Made by a program: the position numbers and the translations under genes
Source: an uncultured Bacteroidota bacterium
GTDB lineage: Bacteria > Bacteroidota > Ignavibacteria > UBA10030
DNA: 40,000 bases
NCBI GenBank assembly: GCA_963739335.1
Contig: CAVUAC010000051.1
Coordinates: 99,500-139,499, forward strand
Direction of reading: 5' to 3'
Notes under the pieces: generated by a model
Told to the model about the DNA's origin: nothing
Seen by the model: only the letters and a program-made list of their open reading frames with translations
Databases searched by the model: none
In this document: piece after piece, positions 19,065-33,906 of the stretch
How positions within the stretch are numbered: position 1 is the first letter of the stretch
Layout of the letters: each line of letters opens with the position of its first letter

Positions 19065-19568
19065 GGGTTTTCCTACTCCGGGAATTGGCAGCTGAGTTTT
19101 TGAGAAAATAACGGGGGGTGCGTTGTCAGATCACTTCCCGCGTTGCCGGGAAACATATCAATTACTTTGCCGAAAGGCAACTTAAGCGAAGCACTATCCG
19201 GCGATTGTCAACAGTGAGAAGCCCGAAAATACAGCTTGCGGAGACAATTTGTGAGGCCACCCTGTTAAACGAGAGGATCCACTTCTGCATTCGAAATTCA
19301 GCGTTCGGTGTTCGACATTCATCGGGGCGCGATCCAAACGGAACGAGCCTGGGGAATATCCAATAACGAACGCCCAATCATGAATGATGAAGTGGATCGC
19401 CCAGCTGTCGGGGTGAGAGCATTCCCCGCCCGCTTGACCGCAGGCGGTCGGGCGGGGAACCTCCGGTCCCCTGTTCGAAATTGTCCGGCGAGCACGTTCT
19501 TAGCGAGCCGTCGACAATTTCAGAATCCCCGTCTGTTTTTCAGACGGGACGCCCATCACTCAGCATTG

Positions 19569-19643
19569 TCGGGGTGACAGGATTCGAACCTGCGACCCCC
19601 TGCGCCCAAGGCAGGTGCGCTAACCGGACTGCGCTACACCCCG
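19569..19643 (-). tRNA. tRNA-Pro (anticodon UGG), 75 nt, CCA not encoded
   Basis: The minus strand reads CGGGGTG TA GCGC AGTCCGGTTA GCGC A CCTGC CTTGGGC GCAGG GGGTC GCAGG TTCGAAT CCTGT CACCCCG A. It folds as a full cloverleaf, the anticodon loop CT-TGG-GC gives Pro, and the T-loop is TTCGAAT. Confidence 0.92.
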
Positions 19644-19645
19644 AA
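19601..19645. repeat. attL: copy 1 of a perfect 45-bp direct repeat (tRNA-Pro positions 1-43 plus 2 upstream nt)
   Basis: TGCGCCCAAGGCAGGTGCGCTAACCGGACTGCGCTACACCCCGAA is identical to 27266..27310. The bases on both sides differ (C/T before, G/A after). Confidence 0.9.
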
Positions 19646-20044
19646 GAAAATCAAAGGTTTTTTGACAGTTTTTCTTCCCTCAACGTTATGAAATTGCTAT
19701 TTGTCATTAGCAATTTTATTAGCACCTCATAACGTCAAGAACGCTGAAATGGAACTGCTTGTTTTTTGTTTTTTGCAGAAATTTGACAACGAGAATTCTT
19801 GCTACTTCTGTAAGTTACAGAAAAAGACTCCTCATATCAAGGGGCATTTTCCTGTAAGTTCTACACGCATGAGAAAAGGAATCACCATTTCTTTAACTCC
19901 TTGTCGTCACGAAGGCTTCGAGCAAGCCCATCGTATGCCAAGCGAATAGGGGTTGTGTACCACTATTCTGCTGTCTAACTTATAGCCAGATTCTTGATTG
20001 AGTCTGGCTTTCTTGTGGTCAGAACAGCGTGTGTTACGACTGGT

Positions 20045-20593
20045 ATGAAATCAGAAATGGATTCTGAGTTCGAGGAATCATTGCATGAATTGCTTGGTCA
20101 GACCCCATCCGCCTGGGTAGAGCAAGCCGAGTGTCTTAGGATATCAGCAAAACTACACTGGACTAAGTTGATGGAGCTTGAGACTCTGTCGCCAACACTC
20201 CCGGGAGTTCGTGTACAAACGCTGGCTTGCATAGATTCGTATATGTTACTGACGGGTTTATCGTTTGAGGTACTCATTAAGGGAGTTCACATTTCAAAAA
20301 CGCCTAATCTGTCCGTTGAGCAACGATTCAATGAATGGGACAAATATCGTGGCGGGCATGGCATATCAACACTGATAGACTTAGTTGACTCAATTTCTCT
20401 TGAAGAAAAGGAGATGCTCAAACGACTAGAAGAATTTACCCAATGGGCAGGCAGATATCCTATACCAAAGAGAGTGCATACATACTGCAACAGTAAGGAA
20501 AAGCATTTACTTTCAGTCAATACTCGGGACCCAATTTTATGTGACGCTCTTTTCAAGCGATTATCGGCCATGATAAAGACCACGAACCAATAA
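20045..20593 (+). CDS. hypothetical all-alpha protein, possibly HEPN-fold-like (island cargo gene 1)
   Basis: The ORF 19994..20593 is shortened to the first ATG at 20045, because a hairpin at 19984..20009 overlaps the TTG start. Motif layout LLTGLSFEVLIKGV ... YRGGHGISTLIDLV ... FTQWAGRYPIP resembles HEPN-type four-helix proteins. No canonical Rx4-6H is seen. Confidence 0.45.
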   Translation: MKSEMDSEFEESLHELLGQTPSAWVEQAECLRISAKLHWTKLMELETLSPTLPGVRVQTLACIDSYMLLTGLSFEVLIKGVHISKTPNLSVEQRFNEWDKYRGGHGISTLIDLVDSISLEEKEMLKRLEEFTQWAGRYPIPKRVHTYCNSKEKHLLSVNTRDPILCDALFKRLSAMIKTTNQ

Positions 20594-20645
20594 TGTCTGC
20601 CGCCGACTTAGGCTTTCAATTGGCTGACTTACAAGGAAGATTCCA

Positions 20646-21452
20646 ATGCCTGACGAGAACAAGAAATCATTCATAAATATCAGTTCCAATGTGCTATTCC
20701 ATTTCACCGGGAGTCTTGACAATCTGAAAAATATATTACGCAATGATTTTTCTCCCCGCTACTGTCCAGAATACGACCCACAAGAGTCAACGGTCGCCCA
20801 CTTGGAGAAGGGAGCACCAAAGTTCGCGAGACCTATGGTATGTTTCTGCGACCTACCATTGTTCCTTATCAAGAATCATCTGATTCGCTATGGACCTTAC
20901 GGAATAGGATTGAAGAAAGAATGGGGTATGAAGAAAGGCATTACTCCAGTGCTGTACGTTCATGTTTGGTCTGAAACCCTAAGACCTCTCCAATGGATAC
21001 GTTCTCTAATACCATGGCAACAAGGTGGACCCAATGCCGAGATAGAGGACATCCAAGGCAATGCAGAAAGTGCTGCCAACTGGATAATGTCCTACGCAAA
21101 ACCATATGAAGGTCCTGCATGGAGAAATGATGTGTATGAAGAACAGGTAAGATTCTATGATGAGCGAGAATGGAGATATACACCAGGTTATTCGCTGCGA
21201 GGTTTTGACTTGCCCCGTTGGATTCCGTACACCGCCAAGAAAGACTTGAGCGGCGCGAACTCGGACATGGAAAGTGAATGCAAGTTGAGTTTTACACCAG
21301 GCGACATTCAATATATCATCTTGAAAGAAGAGGATGAAATTGTGCCCTTTATTCCCATCCTCGCGGACATCAAAGAGAAATTCGGACCAGATGAGGTTAG
21401 CAAGGTCACGACAAAGATTATCACAGAAGACCGAATACGGGAAGATATGTAG
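20646..21452 (+). CDS. AbiGi-like protein (putative abortive-infection component; island cargo gene 2)
   Basis: The N-terminus ISSNVLFHFTGSLDNLKNILRNDFSPRYCPEY matches my recollection of the AbiGi family (Pfam PF10899) signature LFHFT...L..IL..GF.PRYC. The SD-like AAGGAAG lies 6 nt upstream. Needs HMM confirmation. Confidence 0.45.
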   Translation: MPDENKKSFINISSNVLFHFTGSLDNLKNILRNDFSPRYCPEYDPQESTVAHLEKGAPKFARPMVCFCDLPLFLIKNHLIRYGPYGIGLKKEWGMKKGITPVLYVHVWSETLRPLQWIRSLIPWQQGGPNAEIEDIQGNAESAANWIMSYAKPYEGPAWRNDVYEEQVRFYDEREWRYTPGYSLRGFDLPRWIPYTAKKDLSGANSDMESECKLSFTPGDIQYIILKEEDEIVPFIPILADIKEKFGPDEVSKVTTKIITEDRIREDM

Positions 21453-21472
21453 TCAACTCAGAGATAAAGTAG

Positions 21473-22084
21473 ATGAACTCCCCGAGTGCAGGCATCTTCA
21501 TTTTTATACTCTACATTATTCTTGTTTGGAGCGGCGTCAAAGCCATCCGTGCCGGGCTCAGACAATTAAACAATCCTAAAGCCGGCTCCCCTACGTCTGA
21601 TTCCACCCTTCAAACGATTTGGTTCAAGTGGTACGGACCGGCTGGACTGATATACGGTGCAATCGCCATCATCAGTGTCATCTTCATGGCGAAATCCGAC
21701 TTTTCTACAGAATACCCTAACATGGTCGTAGGTCTTCAATCAAGAATTAAAGACCTCGAAGAAGAGAACGCATATTTCAGAGCCGTTGTCAAAGATAGCT
21801 CCAAGTATTCACGCTACACTTTCACTGCGGATATTTACCGCGGGTCAACTCCGTTGTTTGGTGGGACAGTCCTATTGACCTATGATGGAGAACATTTCAT
21901 TTTCAAGGGCGTAAAAGGAGTGTCTCGCGACAGAACAGGTCCATTTTATCTTGATACAATTGATTATAAGGACGGCGACAAGTTCTACCTGAAATTGGAT
22001 TCTGACCAGGTCTGGGGAGTCAATGTGTATACTGGATATACTAACAACATTACTCACCTCTTTCTTCAGTTTTACAGGACTTGA
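21473..22084 (+). CDS. membrane protein: two N-terminal TM helices, short coiled coil, beta-rich C-terminal domain (island cargo gene 3)
   Basis: TM1 GIFIFILYIILVWSGV, TM2 GPAGLIYGAIAIISVIFMA, then LQSRIKDLEEENAYFRAVV and a Tyr/Gly-rich domain. Starts 20 nt after gene 2. No family recognised. Confidence 0.55.
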   Translation: MNSPSAGIFIFILYIILVWSGVKAIRAGLRQLNNPKAGSPTSDSTLQTIWFKWYGPAGLIYGAIAIISVIFMAKSDFSTEYPNMVVGLQSRIKDLEEENAYFRAVVKDSSKYSRYTFTADIYRGSTPLFGGTVLLTYDGEHFIFKGVKGVSRDRTGPFYLDTIDYKDGDKFYLKLDSDQVWGVNVYTGYTNNITHLFLQFYRT

Positions 22085-22273
22085 ACCACGGCTTAACCAT
22101 CTACTGGAAAACATTTAGGTACACCCATGTATTTTGACACGGAGAAGTTGAAAGGAATTCTCCCATATGTTGGACCAATTCTCGTACTGTTAGGTTATCT
22201 GAGGCTGGAAATTGATTGTGATTTTTTATGCGGTTAAACAAAATCGTTACAAATTGTCTTATGGGAGATTATT

Positions 22274-22597
22274 ATGAGAATCCTACCTGTTGGATACCTT
22301 ATTCGCGTATCTTCAAAAGAGGGTCACAGTTTTCTTTTGTGCGTAGCGCACGCACTGGATACAGAGGGCAAATTCTTGGTGGCTGATTTTGCTGAATTTA
22401 TTACAACTTATCCAAGTCGGGGTTTCAATATACCTGCTGGTCGGTCCTTCACTTTTCAAGAGGAATTACAGACTAGTGCAAGAACAAGTTGTTTGATACC
22501 TGTGGACAATGAGAACTTATATGCTTGGATTACCGACAAAATGAAAGAAACCTACGGAAAAGATTTGAAGGTAGAGGTAGAACAGATAAAAGAATGA
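22274..22597 (+). CDS. hypothetical protein (island cargo gene 4)
   Basis: 107-aa ORF with GGGAG 6 nt upstream of the ATG, in the same orientation as the cargo genes. No motif recognised. Confidence 0.45.
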   Translation: MRILPVGYLIRVSSKEGHSFLLCVAHALDTEGKFLVADFAEFITTYPSRGFNIPAGRSFTFQEELQTSARTSCLIPVDNENLYAWITDKMKETYGKDLKVEVEQIKE

Positions 22598-23013
22598 ATT
22601 AGGCGTTAGTCAACACCGTGTTCCTCATCGGAAATTCATAACTCAAAAAAATCCCTCACCGGATACCGGCTGCGATATAGCTACACCCCTTCCCGCTCTA
22701 TTCTGACAGGCGATGTACCGGTGCCCAATGTCGCTCTCTCCTCTGTTCCATGACCCAGGCACATCTTGACTGTTCATGAATCACTGATTAAAACCACTCT
22801 GTTGCGGCGCAATCACGCAACCCCTAGAGTTTACTGAGCGGCCTTTCTAGGTGTGCCCGGCATTTCTGTCGAGTTCAACAAAACTGGCTCGCGCCAATTC
22901 CAGGTTTTTTCGATGACAAAAACCTCAACTTTCACATGTGCAGTTAGTATACCCAGTTTGCAGATTCACCTGCCAAAGGGCTTGCCCTTAAGGAAGATTG
23001 CTGAGGTCCATTT

Positions 23014-23271
23014 CTACTTGAGGTTCTCTAACTCTGCCTCAAGGATTGTCAGCCCATAAGCAACCGGGTCAACAATTTCTGACCCGGTTGCGATGCTGTC
23101 GAGAACTGCGGCAAAGACATTCGCTCTCTTCCATACTCCATAAAGGATTGCCTGAGTCTTCTCTGAAGCTCTTCCTTTTCTGTAGGCGTTTTCAATTCCT
23201 CTGTCCTTAAGGAAATAGCTTATATAGAATGGGTTTTTTGGCTCCCAGCTAAGAATACGGAGTACAATCAT
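23014..23271 (-). CDS. hypothetical protein (island backbone)
   Basis: ORF 23014..23331. The first 20 codons (MDLRMDLKMVVRMDLRMVVR) are just the translation of the 12-bp repeat array, so the start is moved to M21 (23271). No family recognised. Confidence 0.4.
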   Translation of the reverse strand: MIVLRILSWEPKNPFYISYFLKDRGIENAYRKGRASEKTQAILYGVWKRANVFAAVLDSIATGSEIVDPVAYGLTILEAELENLK

Positions 23272-23545
23272 TCTTACGACCATTCTCAAATCCATTCTTA
23301 CGACCATTTTCAAATCCATTCTTAAATCCATTCAATTCATTTTCTCTATTCTTTTACATTTTCAACATTCATTAACATTGATAACATCATTGTTTGTCAC
23401 CAAACTGGTCACCATTTGTTCACCAACTTGTTCAATACTTGGTCACCAAGTTGTTCATTATGGAGTCAGTTGTCATCACCATTCTCATCACCATTCTGTT
23501 CACCACTCTGTTTACCACTCTGTTTACCGTTCTGTTTGTGGATTG
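23268..23545. repeat. 12-bp-phased direct-repeat array in three blocks with an AT-rich spacer (iteron-like, candidate origin/operator region)
   Basis: Block 23268..23339 has six 12-mers (TCATTCTTACGA CCATTCTCAAAT CCATTCTTACGA CCATTTTCAAAT CCATTCTTAAAT CCATTCAATTCA). Block 23396..23453 has ~five units with core GTCACCA. Block 23474..23533 has five 12-mers (CATCACCATTCT x2, GTTCACCACTCT, GTTTACCACTCT, GTTTACCGTTCT). An AT-rich stretch lies at 23340..23395. Confidence 0.8.
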
Positions 23546-23870
23546 TTTGATACCATTCCCAGTTCTTTATGGAAATCACCGTGGTTACATTAGTGGTTCT
23601 GAACTCCACCATTTCATGTTCTTTAAGCCATTCCAGGAAAACCCGCACGGTCTTGAAGTTCCACTGCCATCTTTCGGCTAGAGTCTGTTGAGAGTAACAT
23701 AGGTCTCCCGGTTTGAGGTCGATTCCTATTCCCCTCCTAATGAAGACAGTGTGTCTCTTGTGTGAGGCGCAAAGCAACAGGTCTATCCAGGCCTGACACC
23801 TTGTAAATGGCTCGCTAAAATATAGTTCGTTTTCTGTGATTTGTCGGTGAAGCATTATCCATCCTCGCAT
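23466..23870 (-). CDS. replication-organizer / DnaD-like winged-helix protein (island backbone)
   Basis: MRGWIMLHRQITENELYFSEPFTRCQAWIDLLLCASHKRHTVFIRRGIGIDLKPGDLCYSQQTLAERWQWNFKTVRVFLEWLKEHEMV follows a pattern seen in phage/element replication-organizer N-terminal domains: W-I-x-L-H/Y-R-K-I ... AWIDLLL.A ... G ... S...LA..W.W....V..FL..L. The start at 23870 has AAGGAG 5 nt upstream; the ORF track starts at 23942. Confidence 0.55.
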   Translation of the reverse strand: MRGWIMLHRQITENELYFSEPFTRCQAWIDLLLCASHKRHTVFIRRGIGIDLKPGDLCYSQQTLAERWQWNFKTVRVFLEWLKEHEMVEFRTTNVTTVISIKNWEWYQTIHKQNGKQSGKQSGEQNGDENGDDN

Positions 23871-24048
23871 ATTGACTCCTTTTCTTTGGATGCCATTTTC
23901 ATTGTTTCCATCATCTAGGTCTGTTTTTGTTTCAATGGTCAAGTGGCAATGGTCACTTCAGTTGAATTTGTTCAACCACGAGGTCGCACGGTGCAGAGAA
24001 CATAATTCAAATGTGCTGGTTGAACTGTTATTGGTGATTATGAGTCGT

Positions 24049-24483
24049 TCAAGAGTGCGCCATGTGTCTATTTTGCTTTTTCCTTTCTTGTTCCTCAATC
24101 ATTTGCCTAATAGGTGATTTGTCACTCTGCCGTTTTTGCGATTTCTTCCATTCGTCAACTTTGTCCATTCCAAAATCTGACAACCGAAGGTGAAGTTGTT
24201 CGTCCCAACCGAACTCTTGAACTGTAAAACAGTGGGCAATGAAGAATTCCCGACTTCTTTCAAAAATTCTTCCGTCTGAAATACAAAGACGCAATTTGTT
24301 GAAATGTAATTCTTCAATTAACTCCTTCGCAAAACCAGCGGAATTGTACTTTTCAAATATGTTGGCAGCACTCTTCCATATTTCAAGGATGCCGTCTTTC
24401 AGTGTGCCAATCCTGCACCATTCGGCTCCATCTCGTGCTTCGTTACGGAAGAACACCGCACCATCTTTTGCTTTCCGAACCAT
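24049..24483 (-). CDS. hypothetical protein (island backbone)
   Basis: 144-aa ORF with a strong SD (AAGGAGG, 4 nt before the ATG at 24483) and a Lys/Glu-rich C-terminus. No family recognised. Confidence 0.55.
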   Translation of the reverse strand: MVRKAKDGAVFFRNEARDGAEWCRIGTLKDGILEIWKSAANIFEKYNSAGFAKELIEELHFNKLRLCISDGRIFERSREFFIAHCFTVQEFGWDEQLHLRLSDFGMDKVDEWKKSQKRQSDKSPIRQMIEEQERKKQNRHMAHS

Positions 24484-24515
24484 AGGACCTCCTTATTAAG
24501 AAAGAAATAGTTCCA

Positions 24516-24538
24516 TTGGTGCTGGTTAACAGCACCAA
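24516..24538. promoter_or_regulatory. 9-5-9 perfect inverted repeat TTGGTGCTG-GTTAA-CAGCACCAA; candidate operator upstream of 24483 gene
   Basis: Perfect palindrome 33-55 nt upstream of the ATG at 24483. Its arms share the TTGGTG core with the reverse complement of the GTCACCAA repeat units. Confidence 0.45.
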
Positions 24539-25313
24539 GTGGTGAGAGGATGACGCTCTAGCTAATCGTTTTAGTTACTGGGACTGCTCAGTGGAAACTT
24601 CTGCGGGACTATGCAACGCTTGCTTGTTGCTTGCAGGCGACTACATGCGAGGCAAGGGGATTCTTAACTGTTGTGCTGCTAAGAATCTTTAAGTTTTGTA
24701 AATCTGCAGGTTTGCCAAGAAGTCTTTTGTCACGAAAATCCGGCCATTCTTGGCACTAACAGCCGGAGTACAACTCAGTAGGTTTCTTTTCCTCGAGTTT
24801 AATGATTTTGAATTGCTCTCATAATATACGGCGCCCCAATGTAGAATCAAGAGAAAAAATTACAAAATGCGCGAGAGCTGTACCTTTCTTGTGCTTCTCT
24901 ACAATCCAAGCTCAGTCACACGACTTCGCAGCCGGCCATTCTCACATCGGTTTCATCTCAGCTACTTCAATGACATCCGTCTCCGCGCCAGAAATTTCCG
25001 ACAACGGAATAGCCTTTTCATCTGCTAGGATTATGGCCTCAACTTCAGAGATAGCCGGGACAAGAAGAGTATAGTTGGCCTCCATCTTCATCGTCACCCG
25101 GTAGAGTTTCAGTGAGGGCTGGCCAATCGGAGTATCCTTTCAGCCTGTTTTCAGACCTCACCGTGAGAACTTCCGGTACAACGGTAACTGGAATGACCAC
25201 AAGGAGTCAAATCGTCGCCAGAAAAATCAGCGTAGGAGCTTCAAGAGGAAAGGGGTAGTAAAAACAAAAGGCGGTATTTGAAAAACCAGTGACCGGATAA
25301 TATGTGGAATTGA

Positions 25314-26060
25314 TTACTTGCTCTCGACACGAGGCAAAAACTTGGACACATCTAAGACTTTTGAGAGTTTCTTTAACGTGTTAAGACTGGGATAGGTTAA
25401 ACCCCATCTGACATAATACATAGAAGTCGCGCCAGTTCTCTTTTCAAGTTCTGCTCTTGAGATTGATAGTTTCTTCATTTGGTCCCGAATATGATTTGCC
25501 ATCTCCCAATTTCTTAGCGGCATTGACAAAGGTCGTCTCGTGTACCAAGTTCGGATTCTAGAAGGAGGTGGCTCTTTTTCTGGTGGAATCAAATGATACA
25601 TCTCTAGAGCATCTGCGATTATTTTTAATCGTTCAGGTTTCGGATAGAAATATCCTTTGCAATACGCGTAGATGTTCGTTCGGTTTATACCAGTTTTTCG
25701 TGACAATTCCGGTACCGACATATGTAACTTTTCCAATCTGGCGATTAGAGTACCAGCAAAATGTTTATATCGTGGTGTTCTTGCTCTATCTCTCATCAAC
25801 TTCTTCTGATATTGTGCCGCTGTTTCAACCCCTTTCCTGTGGGCTAACTTCTCAAGGTATTGCTCTTGCGTGAAATTGCCTTTTGACTCTCTCCAATGGC
25901 ACACATAATCGTAATATGATTTGAATCCGAGTTTCTTAGCAATTTTGTTCAGATGCTCTGAGTATTTCTCGCCATGCCTCTTACGAAGAACGGCTTGGTA
26001 ATGGTCTCTATTACCAATCTGAATTATGTCTCTCAGATTGAGTCGCTTCTCGCTTTTCAT
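25314..26060 (-). CDS. DNA-binding protein with two XRE-type helix-turn-helix domains (island regulator)
   Basis: Two HTH-like segments are present: MSVPELSRKTGINRTNIYAYCKGYFYPKPERLKIIADAL and LSISRAELEKRTGATSMYYVRWGLTYPSLNTLKKLSKVL. Confidence 0.65.
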   Translation of the reverse strand: MKSEKRLNLRDIIQIGNRDHYQAVLRKRHGEKYSEHLNKIAKKLGFKSYYDYVCHWRESKGNFTQEQYLEKLAHRKGVETAAQYQKKLMRDRARTPRYKHFAGTLIARLEKLHMSVPELSRKTGINRTNIYAYCKGYFYPKPERLKIIADALEMYHLIPPEKEPPPSRIRTWYTRRPLSMPLRNWEMANHIRDQMKKLSISRAELEKRTGATSMYYVRWGLTYPSLNTLKKLSKVLDVSKFLPRVESK

Positions 26061-26149
26061 AGTTGCCTTCCTAGACCAACTATAGAAAGAAATAAAGAGA
26101 TATTCAATTACTCCGACGAACGAGAAAAGAAAGTCCCACTCGCCACTTC

Positions 26150-27181
26150 TCAGTTCAATGCAAAAGCAATCCTGTTTACAGCACTGTGCAGTTGACTGCC
26201 CACAAGGTGCGAGTAGATTTGAGTGACCACTACACTCGAATGCCCAAGCAGCTTTTGAACCTCATAGATACTGACTCCATCCTGCACTAGCCAGGTCGCA
26301 AATGTGTGCCTGAGACAGTGGAAATGCAACCGGCCATTCAGTCCCGAAAGGCGTATGTATTTCTTGAACTTATGCGTGACGAATCCGGGCAACAATTGTC
26401 TACCGGCCAGCGCAAAGACATAGTCAGATGCCCCGGCAGTGCAAGATTTCGCTGTCAGCAATTGAATTGCCACATCGTTTAATGGAACCGTCCTTTTCTT
26501 TCCACATTTTACTCTGAATGTCGGGCTGCTATGTATGTGTACCAACCTGCGAGCTAGGTCCACATCTTGCCATCGTAGGTTGATAACCTCAGCCCTCCGC
26601 ATTCCAGTCACAACCGCAAAGACAATAAGCCCCTTGAACCATTCTTCCTTTATGAGGCTGAGAAATTTCTGAAAGTCATCCTTCGTGAAATATGTTGGTT
26701 CGGCTTCCGGCACTCTAACGAGCTGTACCTTGCTAAAGGGATTGCTCTCAACCAGTCTCCATCGCAACGCAACAAAACAAATTGAGCGAAGAGCCCTCAG
26801 TTCAACATTAACGCTCACAGGCGAAACCTCTTTCAACCGCTCCGTCTTGTATTGGTCGACATGCCAAGGTGTAATTTCAACGAGAGTGCAGTTCCCGGTC
26901 ACTTTTTGAAGGTTTCTCAGAGCAACCCGAAACATGTCGACTGTTGCCTTGGCATAGTTCACGCCCGCATAACTGAGAAACTCCTCAGTAAAGACTTGGA
27001 GGGTTTTTACTTTTGGCTTGCTACTAAGGAGGGTTTTGAAATCTGTTAGCTGCTTTAGTGCATCGCTCTTTAATGAACATCCGGTAGACTTCCATCTTTG
27101 TCTACCCTCATCATTGTAGATGATGTACCAGAAACCGTTTGAACGTTTGAAAAGGGAAAGTGAAAGGTGGGATGTGGTCAT
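26150..27181 (-). CDS. int: tyrosine-type site-specific recombinase (phage integrase family)
   Basis: N-terminal SAM-like core-binding domain. Catalytic residues are in TGMRRAEVINLRWQDV (Arg), HCLRHTFATWLV (HxxR) and LLGHSSVVVTQIYSH (His...Tyr). It sits adjacent to attR. Confidence 0.92.
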   Translation of the reverse strand: MTTSHLSLSLFKRSNGFWYIIYNDEGRQRWKSTGCSLKSDALKQLTDFKTLLSSKPKVKTLQVFTEEFLSYAGVNYAKATVDMFRVALRNLQKVTGNCTLVEITPWHVDQYKTERLKEVSPVSVNVELRALRSICFVALRWRLVESNPFSKVQLVRVPEAEPTYFTKDDFQKFLSLIKEEWFKGLIVFAVVTGMRRAEVINLRWQDVDLARRLVHIHSSPTFRVKCGKKRTVPLNDVAIQLLTAKSCTAGASDYVFALAGRQLLPGFVTHKFKKYIRLSGLNGRLHFHCLRHTFATWLVQDGVSIYEVQKLLGHSSVVVTQIYSHLVGSQLHSAVNRIAFALN

Positions 27182-27265
27182 TGCTAAACCTCCTTATGGT
27201 TTAGCAATTCCATTAGCACTAGAAGAAAAACGTCAAGATTCCGGGCAACGAATCACGGCAAACGT

Positions 27266-27310
27266 TGCGCCCAAGGCAGGTGCGCTAACCGGACTGCGCT
27301 ACACCCCGAA
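27266..27310. repeat. attR: copy 2 of the 45-bp direct repeat (orphan 5' fragment of tRNA-Pro)
   Basis: Identical 45-mer. It has no tRNA 3' half after it and lies 84 nt upstream of the integrase start on the same (minus) strand. Confidence 0.9.
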
Positions 27311-28990: not shown

Positions 28991-30006
28991 ATGTTTCAGG
29001 CGAAACAGAGACATACGACGTTTTATCTTTTGTTCCTCGGAGTTCTCAGCGGCGCCGCGGCGAACGCGCAGGGGTACGACGACGCGTTCGAAATGAAAAA
29101 CAAGCTCAAGGTCGAGCTTCAGTACGCCGACTACGGAGAGTACCGAGTACCCTGAGCCGATCATCTATCGATATGGTGTGAATGAATACCGTCAGTTGGA
29201 GCCATACATGGCGAATTTCCCTGAGAAACGAGCACTTATCAAATTCACCCGCCTGGTCGCGGAAAATTCGGCGCTCGGGATCAAGTATCAGTATTCCGAC
29301 CTGAAACAAGACGCGCGACAGCATTTCCTTGAAGCAAAGATCACACAGACGATCACCGACGAAACGATTGCCCTTGCCAGCGTGCAGTTCCTTCGCGATT
29401 CGAGAGGGTACAGCGCATTCCAGGGAGGTGTGGGTACACTCTGGGATATCAACGCCCTGACATCCATACAAGGGGATGTGCAGTACTTCTATCGGGGACC
29501 TGAGGCGGCAATTGTTGGCGGTCGCATGGGCACAGTCAACGCCCGCATGAAGTTCCGCCAGGTGCTGACATTGTCGACTGCGCTGCAGTTCGAATACAGC
29601 TTCTACGACGCGAAGGGAGAGGGGCTAAAATTCAGTTCTCACACCGCGGCTCTCTGGCTGAGTCAATTCCTGCCGACTCAAACAGCTGTGCATCTGAACA
29701 TGCGGGTACTATACGAATACAATGGGAATTACATCGGTGGCTCCTTCTCTCGAAGTCGCCCAGTACATCGATTGGGCGACGACGCTCTGGCTCAAGTACC
29801 GGTACTACAAGAACAGAAGCGACAATGTGAGTCTTGGAGAGCAATCGATTATCGTGCCGGATGGATTGCGATCATCGTCCGCGAGCATCCAGCTTAATCG
29901 CGAAATGAGTCGAGAGCTTCTGCTGTATGCGAAGTACCGCTACTACGGCAGCAACCTTCATGTTCAGATGAACACGTACATGGTGGGAGCGGTCTATTCC
30001 TTCTGA
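28991..30006 (+). CDS. outer-membrane beta-barrel protein (unknown family); two frame changes (~29150-29180 and ~29720-29745)
   Basis: Signal peptide MFQAKQRHTTFYLLFLGVLSGAAANAQ, alternating-residue beta strands throughout (LGIKYQYSDL, ALQFEYSFYD, TLWLKYRYYKN), and a C-terminal MVGAVYSF-stop (terminal Phe). Three ORFs in three frames join colinearly. Confidence 0.6.
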
Positions 30007-30018
30007 GGAAACAGTGAA

Positions 30019-30798
30019 ATGCAAAGGCGCATGCACTTCATAGTTCTTGCCTGTCTGTTGGCTGCGAGCGTTTTTCTGCAGCGGTGCGGCAGCCCGCCGC
30101 CTGCGACCCCCGACCCAGTCACTGGATCGATACAAGTCATGGCTATGGACACGGCCACGATTCGGAGCATCTCGTTTGTACTTGATGATGTGAAGTACGG
30201 CTTGCATTCTAATCCTTATATTCTAAACAACGTCGTCATTGGCGTGCACAAACTGTTCGTTTCGGATGAATCGGGAATAGGCGCATCAACAATCGTTGAG
30301 GTGCTCCGAGAACGCCGGTCGGATGCGACTGTCTGGTTGCTGTCTGAAGGACCGTACCTTGGGAGAGTCGCGCCGAAATTCACGGCGACTTCGATTGATA
30401 ACCAAGTCATCGACCTCCAGCAACTTAGAGGAAAGGTGGTGCTCCTCGCGTTCTTCGAGCATACTTGACTGGACTGCATTCAGACGGAGTTGCCGTCTTT
30501 CCAACGAACATTGACAAATGCTTTTCCTCCTAATAAATTGACTGTCGTCGGTGTCAACAACACTTCCTCAAAACAGTGGCTGTCGAACTATAGAAATCAG
30601 AGTGGAGTCTCATACCCGCTAATATATGACGACAGGAGTCAGCTATTCAGCCTCTACGAGGTGGGACCCTCGTTTGGTAACAGTCCGCCAACGTATGTTC
30701 TGATCAACACAAAGGGAGTTGTGCGGTCCAGGACGGACAACAAGTTCAAACAAACAGACACTCTTGCCGTCCTCATACAGCAGATGTTGAATCAATGA
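30019..30798 (+). CDS. TlpA/redoxin-like thiol:disulfide oxidoreductase, candidate selenoprotein (UxxC; in-frame TGA at 30466..30468)
   Basis: ORFs 30019..30468 and 30490..30798 are in the same frame, with only the TGA between them. Read-through gives KVVLLAFFEHT-U-LDC-IQTELPSFQ, so the TGA falls on the first Cys of the thioredoxin-fold CxxC. N-terminal signal with Cys (VFLQRCGS), and a hairpin lies 13 nt downstream. Confidence 0.7.
30482..30498 (+). promoter_or_regulatory. SECIS-like hairpin downstream of UGA
   Basis: AGACGG-AGUUG-CCGUCU: a 6-bp stem and a 5-nt loop containing GU, beginning 13 nt after the UGA. Its sequence is similar to the hairpin in the paralog (shared CGGAGUU). Confidence 0.45.
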
Positions 30799-30892
30799 TG
30801 AGGGGGGTCAGGACGGCCATGACACTCGTGATGTCTTTTGCAGTGACGGAACATGAACTTACACACAGAGCGGAGTTTGAAAGGAGGTCGAC

Positions 30893-33301
30893 ATGAATAG
30901 AAGGGAACTCCTCAGAATCGGGTCCATCCTTCTTCTCCTTCTCCTGCCGCTGCTTGCGACAGGGCAAAATCTCGCATCAACCGGCTGGGAGTCGCTGGGT
31001 CCCGAGGGTGGAAATCTCTGGTCGCTGGTTCGTGATCCAGTCTCCGGTGCTTTGTTTACCGCGACCTATGACTACCCCACAAGAGTCTACAAATCGACGA
31101 ACGATGGTGATCTCTGGACTCCTCTCGGGCAGATACAAGACAATATCGGTTTCTTGCTCATCGATCCCCAGCAACCTGAGTATCTCTACGCTGCCAGTTC
31201 TTACCTTGGCTATGGGACAAGTCTTGGTATTTACAAGAGCATAAACGGTGGGTGGTCGTGGAGCAGGCAAACGTTCGCGGGTGAAACCGACTACAACTAT
31301 ACGATAAGCGAATTTTGTATTGATAACGCGAACCCCAAAAACCTGTCCATCGTGGGGTATTTCTACGTTTTTGTCGGTAGCAATGTCACCTATCGTTCGT
31401 ACGAGTATCGATCGACTGACGCTGGAGTGACATGGTCAGTCAAGACTTTTGACAACGTTGCTGCCGATCAGTTTGTTGCGTACTGCAAGGAAACCGACCC
31501 GAGTGACTCAAGGATTCAGTACATCGGCGGATACACAATCAAAACCGGCAATACGTATCCGAAGGTTTTTAAGACGACGAACGATGGATCCAGCTGGATT
31601 GAACTGGCTGGATTGTCTGGCATGGGGTATGTATACGATTTCTTGATTGATCCTACATCTCCTTCCAAAGTCTACGCAGTCGGTAGCATGGGAGTCTACA
31701 GAAGCCTCGACAAAGGAGCCAACTGGCAGCTCTTGACAAGCTCTGCGTGGGGCGCAAAACTCCTGTTTGACCCGAAGAGTTATTCAACAATCTACGTTTT
31801 CGGCAGTGGAGTGAATTGCTTCCGGAGCACCGATGCGGGGGTAACGTGGACGAGCATCAGCCTGGGCCTGTCGGGCGGAGCCACGAACGGACTCCTGGTC
31901 AATCCGTCCGCAACGAACACGATGTACACGGTGACGCATGGCGGATTCTTTCGGTCAACCGACAGCGGTGCCCACTGGACAACGGCAAACCATGGAATGC
32001 TCAGCACGTACATTCCTTCGGTGAAATGTTCTCCTTCGTCGCCAACGGTCCTCTATGTCTCTGTTCTAAATTCCGGTTTGTACAAGACGACCAACGCTCT
32101 CGGAAAAACATCTCCCGCTGGCAGTCAAAGCATCGTGTGGCAGAAAATGCCTGAATATTCCTATTGTGAGGGGATACTCAGGATGGAGCTCAGCCCGGGC
32201 GATGCGAATATCCTTTACATCCAGGAAGGGGCTGGGTGAAGCAACGCCAGGCTCTTCAAGAGCACGACTGGCGGCGCCAGTTGGACCGTGATCGATGAGA
32301 CCATAAAGGGCTACAACTTCCGTCTGGCGGGTACCCTCTATGAAGCGGGGAGTGCTTACAACCAGTCAGATCAGTCGTACAAGATGGTCCTCCGAAAGAG
32401 TACAAACGACGGAGTTTCATGGACGCAGTATCTTCTGGACGAGCGGGTAAGTTGTGCGTACGCCGTGCTTCCCCACCCCACGAACAACAACATCATCTAC
32501 ATAGGGGGTGACGTCACGAAGGCCGATGGCTACAATTACCCCATCCTGTACCAAACGACAGATAATGGGGCGACATGGCGCTCGCTCGGCGAGAACACAT
32601 TCACGCAGTCATGGGAGAAAATCCAAATTCTGCTCTGCGACCAGAACAATCCAAACCGGATGATAGCAGGAACAAACTATGCCTTCTTCCTCTCAACCAA
32701 TGGCGGCGCGTCATGGTCTAAGACCCTGAGCAACGTGGATGTTTCCTCAGCAGTAATCGACCCACAGAACGGCAATACCATCTACCTGGGAACGCGGTAC
32801 TCAGGCGTCAAATTGTCCACCAACGGCGGAGCATCTTGGACGGATTACAATGATAACCTCCCAAGCCTAGACGTGGAGTCGATGGATTATGACAACGTCA
32901 ACAAGGTCCTGTATATTGGGACCCGGATATCGGGGGTGTACCGGCGTATCGTTGGAACCGCTGTCGCTGTAGAACAGGAATCAATGCCTGGACGCTTCGA
33001 GCTCGCGCAAAACTATCCTAACCCGTTCAATCCAACTACCGATATCGAATTTAGAACTGCTAATTTCGAATTTGTGACACTGAAGGTGTTCGATGTGCTC
33101 GGTAGAGAAATTGCCACGTTGGCTGAAGGGTATCACAGCGCTGGATCCTACAAAGCAACTTTCGATGCCTCTGGACTGAGCTCTGGCGTCTATTACTACC
33201 GGCTGGAAGCCCGCCAGACAGATGGCGGACAGCCAGGAGGCGCTTCAACAGGGTCGGCACGGAGTTTTGTGCAGACAAAAGCCATGGTGCTTATGAAATA
33301 G
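30893..33301 (+). CDS. BNR/Sortilin-type repeat beta-propeller protein with T9SS C-terminal sorting domain; in-frame TGA at 32237..32239
   Basis: Signal peptide, then more than 12 BNR-like motifs (YKSTNDGDLW, YRSTDAGVTW, FKTTNDGSSW, YRSLDKGANW, FRSTDAGVTW, FFRSTDSGAHW, STTGGASW, STNDGVSW, TTDNGATW, LSTNGGASW x2). C-terminal FELAQNYPNPFNPTTDIEF...VFDVLGREIATL...SGVYYYRL is a Por_Secre_tail. The two ORFs are in the same frame and separated by one TGA. Confidence 0.8.
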
Positions 33302-33408: not shown

Positions 33409-33906
33409 ATGCGCACCTCATCACTTAGACAACTTGTCACCCTTTGTCTGCCATTTCTCTTTGCAACCACTTCGGTCGTTACCCAGGAGGGGTTGCGGGC
33501 GGGAATGGAAGCCCCCGAATTCAAACTGCCCACCATAGCAGGCAAGACCGTTACGCTCCGGGAGTTCCAGAACAGGAAGGTTGTCATTGTTCATTTCTGG
33601 AAGTCGAAGTGAAAGGAATGCCAGGCGGAGTTTCCGTCTCTCCAGAAGATCTTCGACGAATACAAGGACGTGGCAATTCTCTCGATCAATCCCATCGATA
33701 TGGCCGGCAGAGTACAGGCCGACGCAAAGTACTACAAGCTTCCCTACGATGTACTAATCGGGAGAGATTCAGATATCATCTCGGAATATCAGATCATCAA
33801 ATTGCCGCGTCTGATGATTATTCGAAGTGACGGGAAGATTGCTTTCACGGAGAGGTATGTGACGTACGAGAAGTTAAAGGAGGAGATCGATCGCGCCGTG
33901 AGGTGA
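33409..33906 (+). CDS. TlpA/AhpC-TSA redoxin-like protein, candidate selenoprotein (UxxC; in-frame TGA at 33610..33612)
   Basis: ORFs 33409..33612 and 33670..33906 are in the same frame. Read-through gives KVVIVHFWKSK-U-KEC-QAEFPSLQKIFDEYKDVAILSINP, the standard redoxin layout with the TGA at the first Cys. Signal peptide present, and a hairpin lies 11 nt downstream. Confidence 0.7.
33624..33638 (+). promoter_or_regulatory. SECIS-like hairpin downstream of UGA
   Basis: GGCGGA-GUU-UCCGUC (6 bp including one G-U pair), or alternatively a 5-bp stem with loop AGUUU. It begins 11 nt after the UGA. Confidence 0.45.

What the first reader, a model, noticed from the sequence alone, without database searches (positions are those of the whole stretch)
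30019..30798. Candidate selenoprotein 1: TlpA/redoxin-like lipoprotein with UxxC (in-frame TGA replaces the first Cys of CxxC) plus a downstream SECIS-like hairpin
ORFs 30019..30468 and 30490..30798 share a frame and are separated only by TGA at 30466..30468. Read-through gives ...KVVLLAFFEHT-U-LDC-IQTELPSFQ... The TGA therefore sits exactly where the thioredoxin-fold redox motif (hhhhFWa.WC..C..E.P.L) has its first Cys. Thirteen nt downstream, AGACGG-AGUUG-CCGUCU (30482..30498) forms a hairpin with a GU-containing loop. This is within the spacing known for bacterial SECIS elements. Most other broken genes in this window are frameshifts rather than in-frame stops, which makes this TGA stand out. 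UxxC thioredoxin-fold selenoproteins are an established class, but standard annotation would split or miss this gene.
Basis: partly seen in the sequence, partly recalled or inferred. Interest (0 to 1): 0.7.

Follow-up and report, generated by a model that had tools for sequence, protein, structure and literature searches.

The report
Selenocysteine redoxin lipoprotein gene with SECIS
The in-frame TGA at 30466-30468 is almost certainly a selenocysteine codon in the active site of a membrane-anchored thiol-disulfide oxidoreductase: a genuine but unsurprising example of a known class that gene callers routinely cut in half.

Summary
ORFs 30019..30468 and 30490..30798 are one 259-codon gene interrupted only by TGA 30466-30468. 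The TGA aligns with the first Cys of the CxxC motif of a ResA/TlpA-like thioredoxin fold.

- **TGA conservation:** all 21 distinct homologous DNA sequences recovered have TGA at this codon, down to about 40% protein identity. That includes 17 of 17 loci from a metagenome search that did not constrain this codon. Each continues in frame for 106-112 codons.
- **Selection:** dN/dS is about 0.1-0.2 on both sides of the TGA.
- **Hairpin:** AGACGG-AGUUG-CCGUCU (30482-30498) meets all four published bacterial SECIS criteria. It has no synonymous changes in any lineage, while neighbouring codons vary freely. The few changes it does show keep or extend base pairing.
- **Sec machinery in relatives:** tRNA-Sec and a Sec-containing selD lie a few kb upstream.
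- **Second gene:** the window holds a paralogous UxxC gene (33409..33906, TGA 33610-33612) with nearly the same hairpin.

The protein has a lipoprotein signal, a PEGA-like beta-sandwich and a UxxC redoxin domain. It belongs to a large family that is almost always Sec-type and is truncated at the UGA in public protein sets.

Not verified: selA, selB, selC and selD in the source genome itself. Overall this is a new member of a known kind.

The parts
30019..30798 (+). Complete selenoprotein CDS: 259 codons plus stop, with Sec at codon 150. Gene callers split it into 30019..30468 and 30490..30798.
   Evidence: Pfam AhpC-TSA/Redoxin match spans the TGA. Orthologs have the same architecture.
30019..30087 (+). 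Signal peptide ending in the invariant Cys23 (C-G-x-P-P). This is the inferred lipoprotein acylation site.
   Evidence: Cys23 and Gly24 are invariant in alignments A2 and A3. Many family members have a canonical L-x-G-C lipobox. The AF2 model shows a helix at residues 2-20. Lipidation is inferred, not tested.
30121..30336 (+). N-terminal seven-strand beta-sandwich (residues 35-106), a divergent PEGA-like domain.
   Evidence: AF2 strands at residues 35-106. PF08308 PEGA is above threshold in family members P0178, P0118 and P0054. There is no Pfam hit in the window protein itself.
30361..30795 (+). ResA/TlpA/CcmG-like thioredoxin-fold domain (residues 115-259).
   Evidence: PF00578 at 58.3 bits and PF08534 at 36.5 bits. 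Foldseek best hits are 4nmu, ResA and CcmG, with target TM-score 0.82-0.88.
30466..30468 (+). UGA = selenocysteine codon (U150), the first position of the U-L-D-C redox motif.
   Evidence: TGA in 21 of 21 distinct homologous sequences. It aligns with the first Cys of CxxC. In the model it lies in the loop between strand 140-146 and helix 152-168.
30475..30477 (+). Resolving Cys153 codon (TGC) of the UxxC motif.
   Evidence: Invariant Cys with TGC/TGT synonymous variation across lineages. This shows that the segment after the UGA is translated.
30482..30498 (+). SECIS hairpin: stem AGACGG / CCGUCU, apical loop AGUUG (30488-30492), with 19 nt between the UGA and the loop.
   Evidence: Meets the bSECIS criteria. 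Codon-invariant in 6 of 6 columns against 4 of 58 elsewhere, p = 2.8e-6. All 126 core pair cells are standard pairs, with G-C to U-A and A-U to G.U or U.G changes. The motif occurs twice in the window against 0.04 expected.
30796..30798 (+). True stop codon (TGA, followed by a second TGA).
   Evidence: Orthologs end at the same position with TAA or TAG. UGA therefore also serves as a normal stop in this lineage.
33409..33906 (+). Paralogous second UxxC selenoprotein gene: signal peptide plus thioredoxin fold, ...HFWKSK-U-KEC.... TGA at 33610-33612, hairpin AGGCGG-AGUUU-CCGUCU at 33623-33639.
   Evidence: The TGA is conserved in L008, L001, L014 and L015. PF00578 at 70.6 bits across the TGA.

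Best explanation
Window 30019-30798 is a single gene for an exported, probably lipid-anchored thiol-disulfide oxidoreductase. Its active site is U150-L-D-C153.

**Translation (inferred).** UGA 30466-30468 is recoded as selenocysteine. The hairpin 30482-30498 lies 13 nt downstream, with its AGUUG loop 19 nt after the UGA. It acts as the bacterial SECIS that recruits SelB.GTP.Sec-tRNA(Sec) to the ribosome. The real stop is TGA 30796-30798.

**Mature protein (inferred).** It consists of an N-terminal lipid anchor at Cys23, a PEGA-like beta-sandwich, and a ResA/TlpA/CcmG-like thioredoxin fold. The Sec sits at the N-terminus of helix alpha-1 and cycles between selenol/thiol and selenenylsulfide with Cys153 to reduce or isomerise disulfides outside the cytoplasm. 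Likely clients are the conserved neighbours: an outer-membrane-barrel-like protein and two BNR/sortilin-like proteins, one of which carries a T9SS sorting tail.

**Shown here:**
- conservation of the UGA;
- translation of the downstream segment;
- structural constraint on the hairpin;
- the fold and the position of the Sec;
- Sec machinery next to the orthologs.

**Inferred, not shown:** actual Sec insertion in this organism, lipidation, direction of electron flow, and substrates.
For: 1. **TGA conservation.** TGA is invariant in 21 distinct homologous sequences from independent assemblies, at 40-95% protein identity. This includes 17 of 17 loci found with the pattern VVLL[AVL]FFEH, which does not constrain that codon.
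2. **The downstream frame is translated.** It stays open for 106-112 codons everywhere. dN/dS is 0.10-0.20 after the TGA and 0.13-0.23 before it. The codons between the TGA and the first possible restart (Leu, Asp, Cys, Ile) vary synonymously while the amino acids are kept.
3. **Sec faces Cys.** U aligns with the first Cys of CxxC in TlpA-type homologs and in the full-length Cys form P0178.
4. **The hairpin fits the SECIS model.** It satisfies loop 3-9 nt, stem 4-16 bp, a G in loop position 1-2 followed by G or U, 16-37 nt spacing, and MFE <= -7.5 kcal/mol.
5. **The hairpin is under structural constraint.** Its six codons are the only run with no synonymous change: 6 of 6 against 4 of 58 columns, Fisher p = 2.8e-6, and 4 of 4 against 0 of 35 for codons that are at least 4-fold degenerate. 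Its rare substitutions change the amino acid but keep pairing. None of 500 shuffles reaches the observed covariation score.
6. **Sec machinery in relatives.** tRNA-Sec (ARAGORN; Rfam RF01852 at 68-70 bits) lies 2.8-4.5 kb upstream in L003-L007. SelD (TIGR00476 at 289-312 bits), itself carrying an in-frame UGA in G-x-G-U-x-G-K, lies a little further upstream in L003 and L006.
7. **A second gene in the same window.** A paralogous UxxC gene carries the same hairpin motif.
8. **Structure.** The AF2 model (pLDDT 84) places residue 150 at the canonical CxxC position. The best structural matches are ResA and CcmG-type proteins.
Against: - No tRNA-Sec, selA, selB or selD lies within the 40-kb window.
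- None of the 120 best SelD relatives in the protein database lies on a contig of the source's length. Sec decoding in this particular genome is therefore unproven.
- The immediately upstream gene carries two frameshifts here, so some local gene decay or assembly error exists.
- The hairpin is short. Its folding energy is not distinguishable from shuffled sequence, and no Rfam SECIS family matches it.
- Covariation rests on only a few divergent sequences.
- There is no experimental evidence of selenium incorporation.
Confidence: 0.88

Rival explanations
1. The family is a genuine selenoprotein family, but this copy is a relic. The source organism has lost Sec decoding, so translation ends at codon 149 and the downstream part is no longer made.
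For: - No Sec machinery is present in the window. A SelD on the source contig was not found by the contig-length fingerprint.
- The local synteny with tRNA-Sec and selD seen in relatives is broken here by a rearrangement and an integrated element.
- The adjacent upstream gene has two frameshifts.
- The post-TGA part is much more divergent from the closest relative than the pre-TGA part.
Against: - Both UxxC genes in the window keep an intact downstream frame (109 and 97 codons, no stop or indel), in an assembly where frameshifts are common.
- The extra post-TGA divergence affects synonymous sites as well (pS 0.12 to 0.69), with pN/pS 0.28. It begins abruptly just after the hairpin. That pattern indicates recombination with a divergent functional allele, not neutral decay.
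- The hairpin is intact.
Confidence: 0.07
2. The TGA is a nonsense mutation or a sequencing or assembly error in this genome. The gene would then be an ordinary CxxC redoxin pseudogene or a misread TGC/TGT.
For: Several genes in the window are broken. That shows either a low-quality assembly or gene decay.
Against: - The same TGA occurs in all 21 distinct homologous sequences from independent JGI, ENA, NCBI and Logan assemblies.
- In the exhaustive profile search, nearly all gene calls for the wider family end at exactly this residue.
- The other breaks in the window are indels, not in-frame stops.
Confidence: 0.02
3. There are two real genes. A 149-residue PEGA-domain protein ends at the TGA, and a separate 102-residue protein starts at TTG 30490. 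The conserved GGAGUUG would then be a ribosome-binding site plus start codon, or a regulatory hairpin.
For: - Gene callers annotate exactly this split.
- The invariant loop region contains GGAG immediately before a TTG.
Against: - The split would cut a thioredoxin fold between its first core strand and the active-site helix.
- The 21 nt between the TGA and the TTG encode L-D-C-I-Q-T-E, with an invariant Cys and Ile that vary only synonymously, so this stretch is translated in the upstream frame.
- GGAG directly abuts the TTG with no spacer, which is not a workable Shine-Dalgarno geometry (established knowledge).
- The Cys form P0178 is one continuous protein.
Confidence: 0.02
4. The organism uses an alternative genetic code in which UGA is a sense codon (Trp or Gly), so no Sec is involved.
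For: None specific. The only point in its favour is that an in-frame TGA is tolerated.
Against: - The gene's own terminal TGA aligns with TAA or TAG stops in orthologs, so UGA terminates translation in this lineage.
- In-frame TGAs are confined to the Cys position of redox motifs and are followed by a hairpin.
- Relatives carry tRNA-Sec with anticodon UCA and selD.
- Most large ORFs in the window are intact under table 11.
Confidence: 0.01

Closest known systems
Prx-like thiol:disulfide oxidoreductase selenoproteins (PF00578, UxxC/UxxU). [quoted passage not shown]
   Same: - A thioredoxin-fold domain that scores best with PF00578 and PF08534.
- Sec replaces the first Cys of CxxC.
- A bSECIS hairpin lies in the coding region directly downstream.
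   Different: - It carries an N-terminal lipoprotein signal and one PEGA-like beta-sandwich (one to about four copies in relatives).
- The motif is FFEHT-U-LDC-IQTELP rather than W-C/U-x-x-C.
- Cys forms are very rare in this subfamily.
- I could not retrieve the reference accessions to measure direct similarity.
ResA / TlpA / CcmG (DsbE): extracytoplasmic reducing thioredoxins, e.g. PDB 1su9, 1st9, 4nmu, 2b1k.
   Same: - Best structural matches: target TM-score 0.82-0.88, rmsd 1.9-2.7 A over about 140 residues.
- Membrane-tethered and extracytoplasmic.
- The active site is followed by an acidic residue and then x-P.
- A conserved Pro-Thr at the cis-Pro position.
   Different: - These proteins are Cys enzymes with W-C-x-x-C.
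- Sequence similarity is low: NCBIfam ResA subfamily 53.5 bits against a cutoff of 170, TlpA 19.6 against 230.
- No cytochrome c maturation genes lie nearby, so the client is probably different.
NCBIfam NF041054 'ResA-like WAxxUGC motif-containing protein', a curated ResA-like selenoprotein family.
   Same: A ResA-like thioredoxin fold with Sec in the active site.
   Different: It scores 19 bits against a cutoff of 300. The motif (U-G-C) and the architecture both differ, so the window protein is not a member.
Sec-containing SelD (TIGR00476, UxxK) of the same lineage. Used here as an internal SECIS reference.
   Same: In L003 and L006 the SelD UGA is followed, about 22 nt later, by the apical loop of a G+C-rich hairpin whose loop region reads AGG. 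The geometry matches the redoxin hairpin.
   Different: - The SelD hairpin is much longer and more stable, about -24 to -26 kcal/mol over 60 nt.
- It is an unrelated protein family.

Membership tests
Bacterial selenoprotein gene (UGA recoded by SelB/SECIS) | The in-frame UGA is conserved among orthologs rather than sporadic. | tested here: met
   TGA in 21 of 21 distinct sequences. This includes 17 of 17 loci from a search that did not constrain this codon.
Bacterial selenoprotein gene (UGA recoded by SelB/SECIS) | The sequence downstream of the UGA is protein-coding in the same frame and under purifying selection. | tested here: met
   Open for 106-112 codons. dN/dS is 0.10-0.20 after the TGA. 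There is synonymous variation at the invariant Cys and Ile just after the UGA. The Pfam domain spans the UGA.
Bacterial selenoprotein gene (UGA recoded by SelB/SECIS) | Cys-containing homologs align a Cys with the UGA position. | tested here: met
   The first Cys of W-C-x-x-C in P0012-P0031, and C-A-P-C in P0178 (E = 5e-15 over both domains).
Bacterial selenoprotein gene (UGA recoded by SelB/SECIS) | A bSECIS stem-loop: 3-9 nt loop, 4-16 bp stem, G in loop position 1-2, 16-37 nt from the UGA, MFE <= -7.5 kcal/mol (PMC13188914, Fig. 2). | tested here: met
   Loop AGUUG, 6-bp stem, 19 nt spacing, -8.1 to -9.5 kcal/mol. Frozen at synonymous sites. Pairing-preserving changes.
Bacterial selenoprotein gene (UGA recoded by SelB/SECIS) | selA, selB, selC (tRNA-Sec) and selD are present in the same genome. 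| not testable with these tools
   - None lies in the 40-kb window.
- The source assembly could not be identified or fetched.
- In relatives, selC and a Sec-containing selD lie next to the ortholog.
- One MAG appears to have SelD on the same 381-kb contig, judged by matching contig length.
- selA and selB were not seen in any locus.
Bacterial selenoprotein gene (UGA recoded by SelB/SECIS) | Selenium incorporation is demonstrated (75Se labelling or mass spectrometry). | not testable with these tools
   This needs an experiment.
TlpA/ResA/CcmG-like redoxin (PF00578 / PF08534, thioredoxin fold) | The family HMM scores above its curated threshold. | tested here: met
   PF00578 at 58.3 bits (cutoff 26) and PF08534 at 36.5 bits (cutoff 26.6).
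TlpA/ResA/CcmG-like redoxin (PF00578 / PF08534, thioredoxin fold) | A thioredoxin fold with the C/U-x-x-C at the N-terminus of helix alpha-1, and a conserved cis-Pro loop. | tested here: met
   AF2 model at pLDDT 84, with residue 150 between strand 140-146 and helix 152-168. Best PDB matches are ResA, 4nmu and CcmG. The invariant P224-T225 aligns with the P-T of TlpA homologs.
NCBIfam equivalogs ResA (NF002854), TlpA (NF047696), StoA (NF041202) | The score reaches the curated equivalog or subfamily cutoff. | tested here: not met
   53.5 against 170, 19.6 against 230, and 31.4 against 210 bits. It works like these proteins but is not an ortholog of any of them.
Peroxiredoxin proper (Prx/BCP; P-x-x-x-T-x-x-C peroxidatic motif) | The conserved PxxxTxxC(U) active-site motif (motif as given in PMC13188914). 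| tested here: not met
   The sequence around the Sec is L-A-F-F-E-H-T-U-L-D-C. Thr is at -1, not -3, and there is no Pro at -7. The motif is a CxxC-type dithiol or selenol-thiol centre.
NF041054 WAxxUGC ResA-like selenoprotein | The score reaches the curated cutoff, and the W-A-x-x-U-G-C motif is present. | tested here: not met
   19 bits against a cutoff of 300. The motif here is F-E-H-T-U-L-D-C.

The most novel reading that the evidence does not exclude
The gene may represent a distinct selenoprotein family that has not been curated. Its features would be:

- lipoproteins with one to about four PEGA-like domains fused to a UxxC redoxin;
- almost always Sec-type, with Cys forms extremely rare;
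- found in Ignavibacteria-like and related uncultured bacteria;
- organised with two further Sec-redoxin paralog types (UxxC and UxxxC), tRNA-Sec and a Sec-containing SelD in one 'selenium island';
- a near-identical SECIS sequence shared between paralogs, which also appears to serve as a recombination breakpoint.
Probability: 0.4. Interest if true: 0.5.

Novelty: new member of a known kind. Interest (0 to 1): 0.4.

Why it matters
**Annotation.** This gene, its paralog at 33409-33906 and dozens of homolog clusters in public protein sets are stored as truncated fragments ending ...FFEHT. Their catalytic domain is either missing or called as a separate small ORF. No curated NCBIfam model captures them. 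A family model with a Sec-aware rule would repair many records.

**Biology.**
- It adds an extracytoplasmic, lipid-anchored selenoenzyme to the selenoproteome of a poorly studied lineage, the Ignavibacteria-like FCB-group bacteria.
- In relatives, several Sec-redoxins cluster with tRNA-Sec and a Sec-containing SelD.
- It offers a compact, sequence-invariant SECIS (AGACGGAGUUGCCGUCU) that could be tested for SelB recognition.

It does not change what is known about Sec decoding or about thioredoxin-fold selenoproteins.

Tried and rejected
- **Identifying the source assembly, to scan it for selA/B/C/D.**
  - Exact look-ups of two window proteins found no indexed contig.
  - The cluster look-up gave only 'NCBI/ENA, contig 355,731 bp' and no name.
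  - The genome-representative scan did not contain the source.
  - A SelD search used as a contig-length fingerprint found no SelD on a 355,731-bp contig among the best 120 of 4,891 hits. This is negative but not conclusive.
- **tRNA-Sec or a remnant in the window.** ARAGORN, Rfam and blastn with the relatives' tRNA-Sec found nothing. The blastn did reveal the tRNA-Pro att repeat.
- **Rfam at permissive thresholds over 30400-30600.** Only noise came back and no SECIS family matched.
- **Folding energy alone.** It is not distinguishable from shuffles. RNAalifold on 9 sequences showed no covariation because the stem is invariant among close relatives. Covariation appeared only after adding distant metagenomic members.
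- **A lower stem (UGGA/UCCA) suggested by RNAalifold.** It is broken in 3 of 9 sequences and is not claimed.
- A 34-sequence alignment was too diverse for the metagenome scan, so an 11-sequence one was used.
- **Relaxed selection after the TGA in this lineage.** Considered and rejected, because synonymous divergence jumps too and pN/pS stays low. That points to a recombination mosaic.
- **Peroxiredoxin function.** Considered because PF00578 is the top Pfam hit. Rejected as the primary reading because the PxxxTxxC motif is absent and the best structural matches are ResA and CcmG.
Full report
**1. The observation**

The sequence is as described. ATG 30019 opens a frame that reaches TGA at 30466-30468 and then continues in the same frame to TGA 30796-30798. 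The read-through product reads ...GKVVLLAFFEHT-U-LDC-IQTELPSFQ... Thirteen nucleotides after the TGA lies AGACGG (30482-30487), loop AGUUG (30488-30492), CCGUCU (30493-30498).

With Cys in place of the stop, Pfam AhpC-TSA matches residues 115-237 in one stretch. That is profile positions 2-123 of 124, at 58.3 bits against a cutoff of 26. Redoxin scores 36.5 bits. So one domain spans the stop.

Taken alone, the hairpin is not thermodynamically special. Its z-score is about -0.6 to -0.7 against dinucleotide shuffles.

**2. Conservation of the UGA**

A word-indexed protein search found ten close relatives at 58-100% identity. All were 143-154 residues long and all ended in KVVLLAFFEHT.

I fetched DNA for these relatives. 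I also fetched four further lineages from genome representatives and 17 loci from JGI metagenomes. Together they gave 21 distinct sequences.

- Every one has TGA at this codon and then 106-112 further in-frame codons.
- The metagenome scan used the peptide pattern VVLL[AVL]FFEH. That pattern places no constraint on the codon in question, so 17 of 17 TGA is an unbiased result.
- The gene's terminal stop is TGA in some lineages and TAA or TAG in others, at the same position. UGA is therefore an ordinary stop in this lineage, which rules out a reassigned genetic code.

**3. The downstream part is translated**

Nei-Gojobori dN/dS is 0.13-0.23 before the TGA and 0.10-0.20 after it.

The four codons right after the TGA encode L, D/A/E, C and I. 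They vary synonymously (CTG/CTA/CTC, TGC/TGT, ATT/ATC), while Cys and Ile are invariant. This stretch lies upstream of the TTG that gene callers use as the start of the 'second ORF', so it can only be translated by reading through the UGA.

In an alignment with distant full-length TlpA/redoxin proteins, the Sec position faces the first Cys of W-C-x-x-C and Cys153 faces the second. The only clear full-length Cys form with the same two-domain architecture is P0178. It aligns over residues 9-238 (E = 5e-15), with C-A-P-C opposite U-L-D-C.

**4. The hairpin as a SECIS**

The published bacterial SECIS model (PMC13188914, Fig. 2) sets four requirements. The hairpin meets all of them:

| Requirement | This hairpin |
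|---|---|
| Apical loop of 3-9 nt | AGUUG, 5 nt |
| Upper stem of 4-16 bp | 6 bp |
| G in the first two loop positions, usually followed by G or U | G at position 2, followed by U |
| 16-37 nt between the UGA and the loop | 19 nt |
| MFE <= -7.5 kcal/mol | -8.1 (hairpin only, centroid) to -9.5 kcal/mol (MFE) |

The stronger evidence is evolutionary.

- **Synonymous sites are frozen.** Across nine lineages there are 64 amino-acid-invariant, degenerate codon columns. Only 10 are also codon-invariant, and six of those are the six consecutive hairpin codons CAG ACG GAG TTG CCG TCT (Fisher p = 2.8e-6). For codons that are at least 4-fold degenerate, the count is 4 of 4 in the hairpin against 0 of 35 elsewhere.
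- **The substitutions that do occur preserve pairing.** In the 21-sequence set the hairpin shows no synonymous substitution at all. Its few substitutions change the amino acid but keep or extend pairing.
  - A-U becomes G.U in L015 and L033.
  - G-C becomes U-A, and A-U becomes U.G, in L031.
  - A new flanking C-G or G-C pair appears in five sequences.
- **Formal pair count.** All 126 core pair cells are standard pairs. None of 500 column shuffles reaches the observed covariation score.
- **Occurrence in the window.** The motif AGRCGGAGTTKCCGTCT occurs exactly twice in the 40-kb window against 0.04 expected. Both copies lie just after an in-frame TGA of a thioredoxin-fold gene.

No Rfam SECIS family matches. 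That is unsurprising given how diverse bacterial SECIS elements are.

**5. Sec machinery**

None lies in the window. The only tRNA is tRNA-Pro. No selA, selB or selD appears among the ORFs, and there is no remnant of tRNA-Sec.

In relatives the picture is clear.

- **tRNA-Sec.** A tRNA-Sec with anticodon UCA lies 2.8-4.5 kb upstream of the orthologous gene in L003, L004, L005, L006 and L007. Rfam RF01852 confirms it in L003, L006 and L007 at 67.6-69.9 bits against a gathering score of 47.
- **SelD.** In L003 and L006 the gene before the tRNA is SelD (TIGR00476 at 289 and 312 bits, cutoff 125).
  - Its called start is truncated because SelD itself has an in-frame TGA in the G-x-G-U-x-G-K loop.
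  - A strong hairpin follows that TGA, with its apical loop about 22 nt downstream.
- **MAG JAZDJN01.** A SelD relative (P0200) sits on a contig of the same length, 381,125 bp, as the one carrying the redoxin ortholog L015.

In the window, the synteny with tRNA-Sec and selD is interrupted. An integrated element lies at about 19.6-27.3 kb, with a tyrosine integrase at 26150-27181. It is bounded by tRNA-Pro (19565-19647) and a 45-nt copy of part of that tRNA (27266-27310). There is also an inversion relative to L001.

I could not identify or retrieve the source assembly. Sec machinery in this genome therefore remains untested.

**6. What the protein is**

The AlphaFold2 model has mean pLDDT 84.2. 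It shows:
- an N-terminal helix (residues 2-20), the signal peptide;
- a seven-strand beta-sandwich (residues 35-106);
- a thioredoxin fold, with residue 150 in the loop between strand 140-146 and helix 152-168. This is the canonical CxxC location.

The best PDB matches are the B. anthracis thiol-disulfide oxidoreductase 4nmu, ResA, CcmG/DsbE, DsbF and the pneumococcal surface lipoprotein thioredoxin Etrx2. Target TM-scores reach 0.88.

Cys23 followed by G-x-P-P is invariant, and many family members have a canonical L-x-G-C lipobox. I infer a lipoprotein from this. Lipidation was not tested.

The beta-sandwich is a divergent PEGA domain. PF08308 is above threshold in P0178 (42 bits), P0118 (31) and P0054 (23), and below threshold in the closer relatives.

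The motif is of the CxxC type, not the peroxiredoxin PxxxTxxC type. NCBIfam equivalogs for ResA, TlpA and StoA, and the curated WAxxUGC selenoprotein family, are all far below their cutoffs.

The most likely function is extracytoplasmic disulfide reduction or isomerisation through a selenenylsulfide. The conserved neighbours suggest the clients, but nothing here tests this. They are:
- a 337-residue protein ending in an outer-membrane-barrel-like ...YSF;
- two BNR/sortilin-like proteins, one with a T9SS sorting tail.

**7. Size of the family**

An exhaustive HMMER profile search was run with the N-terminal fragments against 1.84 billion cluster representatives. It found 180 hits at E <= 1e-3 and 54 at E <= 1e-10.

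Almost every hit that carries the N-terminal domain ends exactly at the profile's last position. The C-termini read ...FFEHT, FFEYT, FFSHT, FFEST and similar. This includes proteins of 239-410 residues with two to four copies of the N-terminal domain. Only P0178 is a clear full-length Cys form.

The family is therefore large, almost always Sec-type, and systematically truncated in public protein sets.

Two further paralog types exist.
- **Paralog 2** is present in the window at 33409-33906.
  - It has a signal peptide plus a thioredoxin fold, HFWKSK-U-KEC, with TGA at 33610-33612.
  - Its hairpin is AGGCGG-AGUUU-CCGUCU at 33623-33639. PF00578 scores 70.6 bits.
  - The TGA is conserved in L008, L001, L014 and L015.
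- **Paralog 3** is absent from the window.
  - It reads FFGxxG-U-GGxC and is found in L003, L006, L007 and L009.
  - Its hairpin has the loop AGGCU, and its stem changes in a compensatory way between lineages. I read those changes from the sequences by eye.

**8. Is this copy alive?**

The upstream neighbour carries two single-base frameshifts in the window, and other genes look split. So there is either assembly error or gene decay.

The focal gene is 97-100% identical to its closest relative (L023) up to about 30 nt past the TGA. It drops to 50-77% immediately after the hairpin. Synonymous divergence rises from 0.12 to 0.69, while pN/pS stays at 0.17 before and 0.28 after.

Neutral decay would leave pS unchanged and drive pN/pS towards 1. 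The observed pattern is a recombination mosaic, with the breakpoint at the invariant SECIS. It does not indicate loss of function.

Both UxxC genes in the window keep uninterrupted downstream frames.

**9. Comparison with what is known, and verdict**

UxxC thioredoxin-fold selenoproteins are an established class. The 2026 review lists Prx-like thiol:disulfide oxidoreductase (PF00578, UxxC/UxxU), thiol:disulfide interchange protein, thiol-disulfide isomerase-like protein, redoxin family protein (PF08534, UxxC) and a UGC-type TlpA family.

This gene fits that class by domain, motif and SECIS. It differs in four respects:
- the lipoprotein plus PEGA architecture;
- its near-exclusive use of Sec;
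- its clustering with paralogs, tRNA-Sec and a Sec-containing SelD;
- the absence of a specific curated model.

A search of the held literature for Ignavibacteria together with selenocysteine or selenoprotein terms turned up nothing relevant to this lineage.

The finding is real, well explained and of moderate interest: a new member of a known kind.

Noticed in passing
window 33409-33906 (+): A second, paralogous UxxC selenoprotein gene: signal peptide plus thioredoxin fold...KVVIVHFWKSK-U-KECQAEFPSLQ.... TGA is at 33610-33612. The hairpin AGGCGG-AGUUU-CCGUCU is at 33623-33639, 10 nt after the TGA. The TGA is conserved in L008, L001, L014 and L015.
   Followed up: partly
window 19565-27310: A roughly 7.6-kb integrated element bounded by an intact tRNA-Pro (19565-19647, minus strand) and a 45-nt copy of part of that tRNA (27266-27310). 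A tyrosine integrase lies at 26150-27181 (-). The element interrupts the synteny that links the redoxin cluster to tRNA-Sec and selD in relatives.
   Followed up: partly
window 28991-30006 (+): The conserved 337-residue upstream neighbour has no Pfam family and ends in an outer-membrane-barrel-like ...YSF. Here it is split across three frames by two frameshifts, near 29148 and 29706. By eye each looks like a single-base insertion. This is either a pseudogene or an assembly error.
   Followed up: partly
window 6469-7885, 9011-12204, 15545-16593: Other genes look split.
- A TolC-like OEP is divided into two ORFs.
- An AcrB-type pump's 780-residue ORF covers only profile positions 309-1020, with small ORFs upstream.
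- A transposase is present as an HTH ORF plus a DDE_3 ORF.

This is consistent with indel errors or gene decay in this assembly.
   Followed up: no
window ~30498-30500; L023: A sharp recombination breakpoint lies immediately 3' of the invariant SECIS. Identity to L023 is 97-100% before it and 50-77% after it. There is no blastn match at all across 30770-32138 (the first BNR gene), and then 85% again from 32138. The invariant hairpin may act as a crossover site between diverged alleles.
   Followed up: partly
L003 5419-5979; L006 3488-4255; L007 5431-5988; L009 76-651: A third Sec-redoxin paralog type sits directly upstream of the focal gene in relatives and is absent from the window. It reads ...KVVLLAFFGxxG-U-GGxC (a UxxxC spacing). 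Its hairpin has the loop AGGCU, and its stem shows compensatory changes between lineages, read by eye.
   Followed up: partly
L003 1843-2871 and 3098-3196; L006 962-1981 and 2004-2100: SelD with its own in-frame UGA (G-x-G-U-A-G-K) and a strong downstream hairpin, followed directly by tRNA-Sec. Both lie a few kb upstream of the Sec-redoxin cluster, giving a compact selenium-utilisation neighbourhood in Ignavibacteria-like MAGs.
   Followed up: yes
window 30893-33301 (+): Two conserved BNR/sortilin-Vps10-like beta-propeller proteins lie between the two selenoprotein genes. The second has a T9SS C-terminal sorting domain. The same order is kept in L001, L003-L005 and L008, and they are candidate clients of the redoxins.
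   Followed up: no
P0035 (public protein set): One family member (185 aa) runs on after ...FFEH in a different-looking sequence (CSPSSSTPDATASRR...). This is probably a frameshift at the Sec codon region in that assembly rather than a real variant.
   Followed up: no
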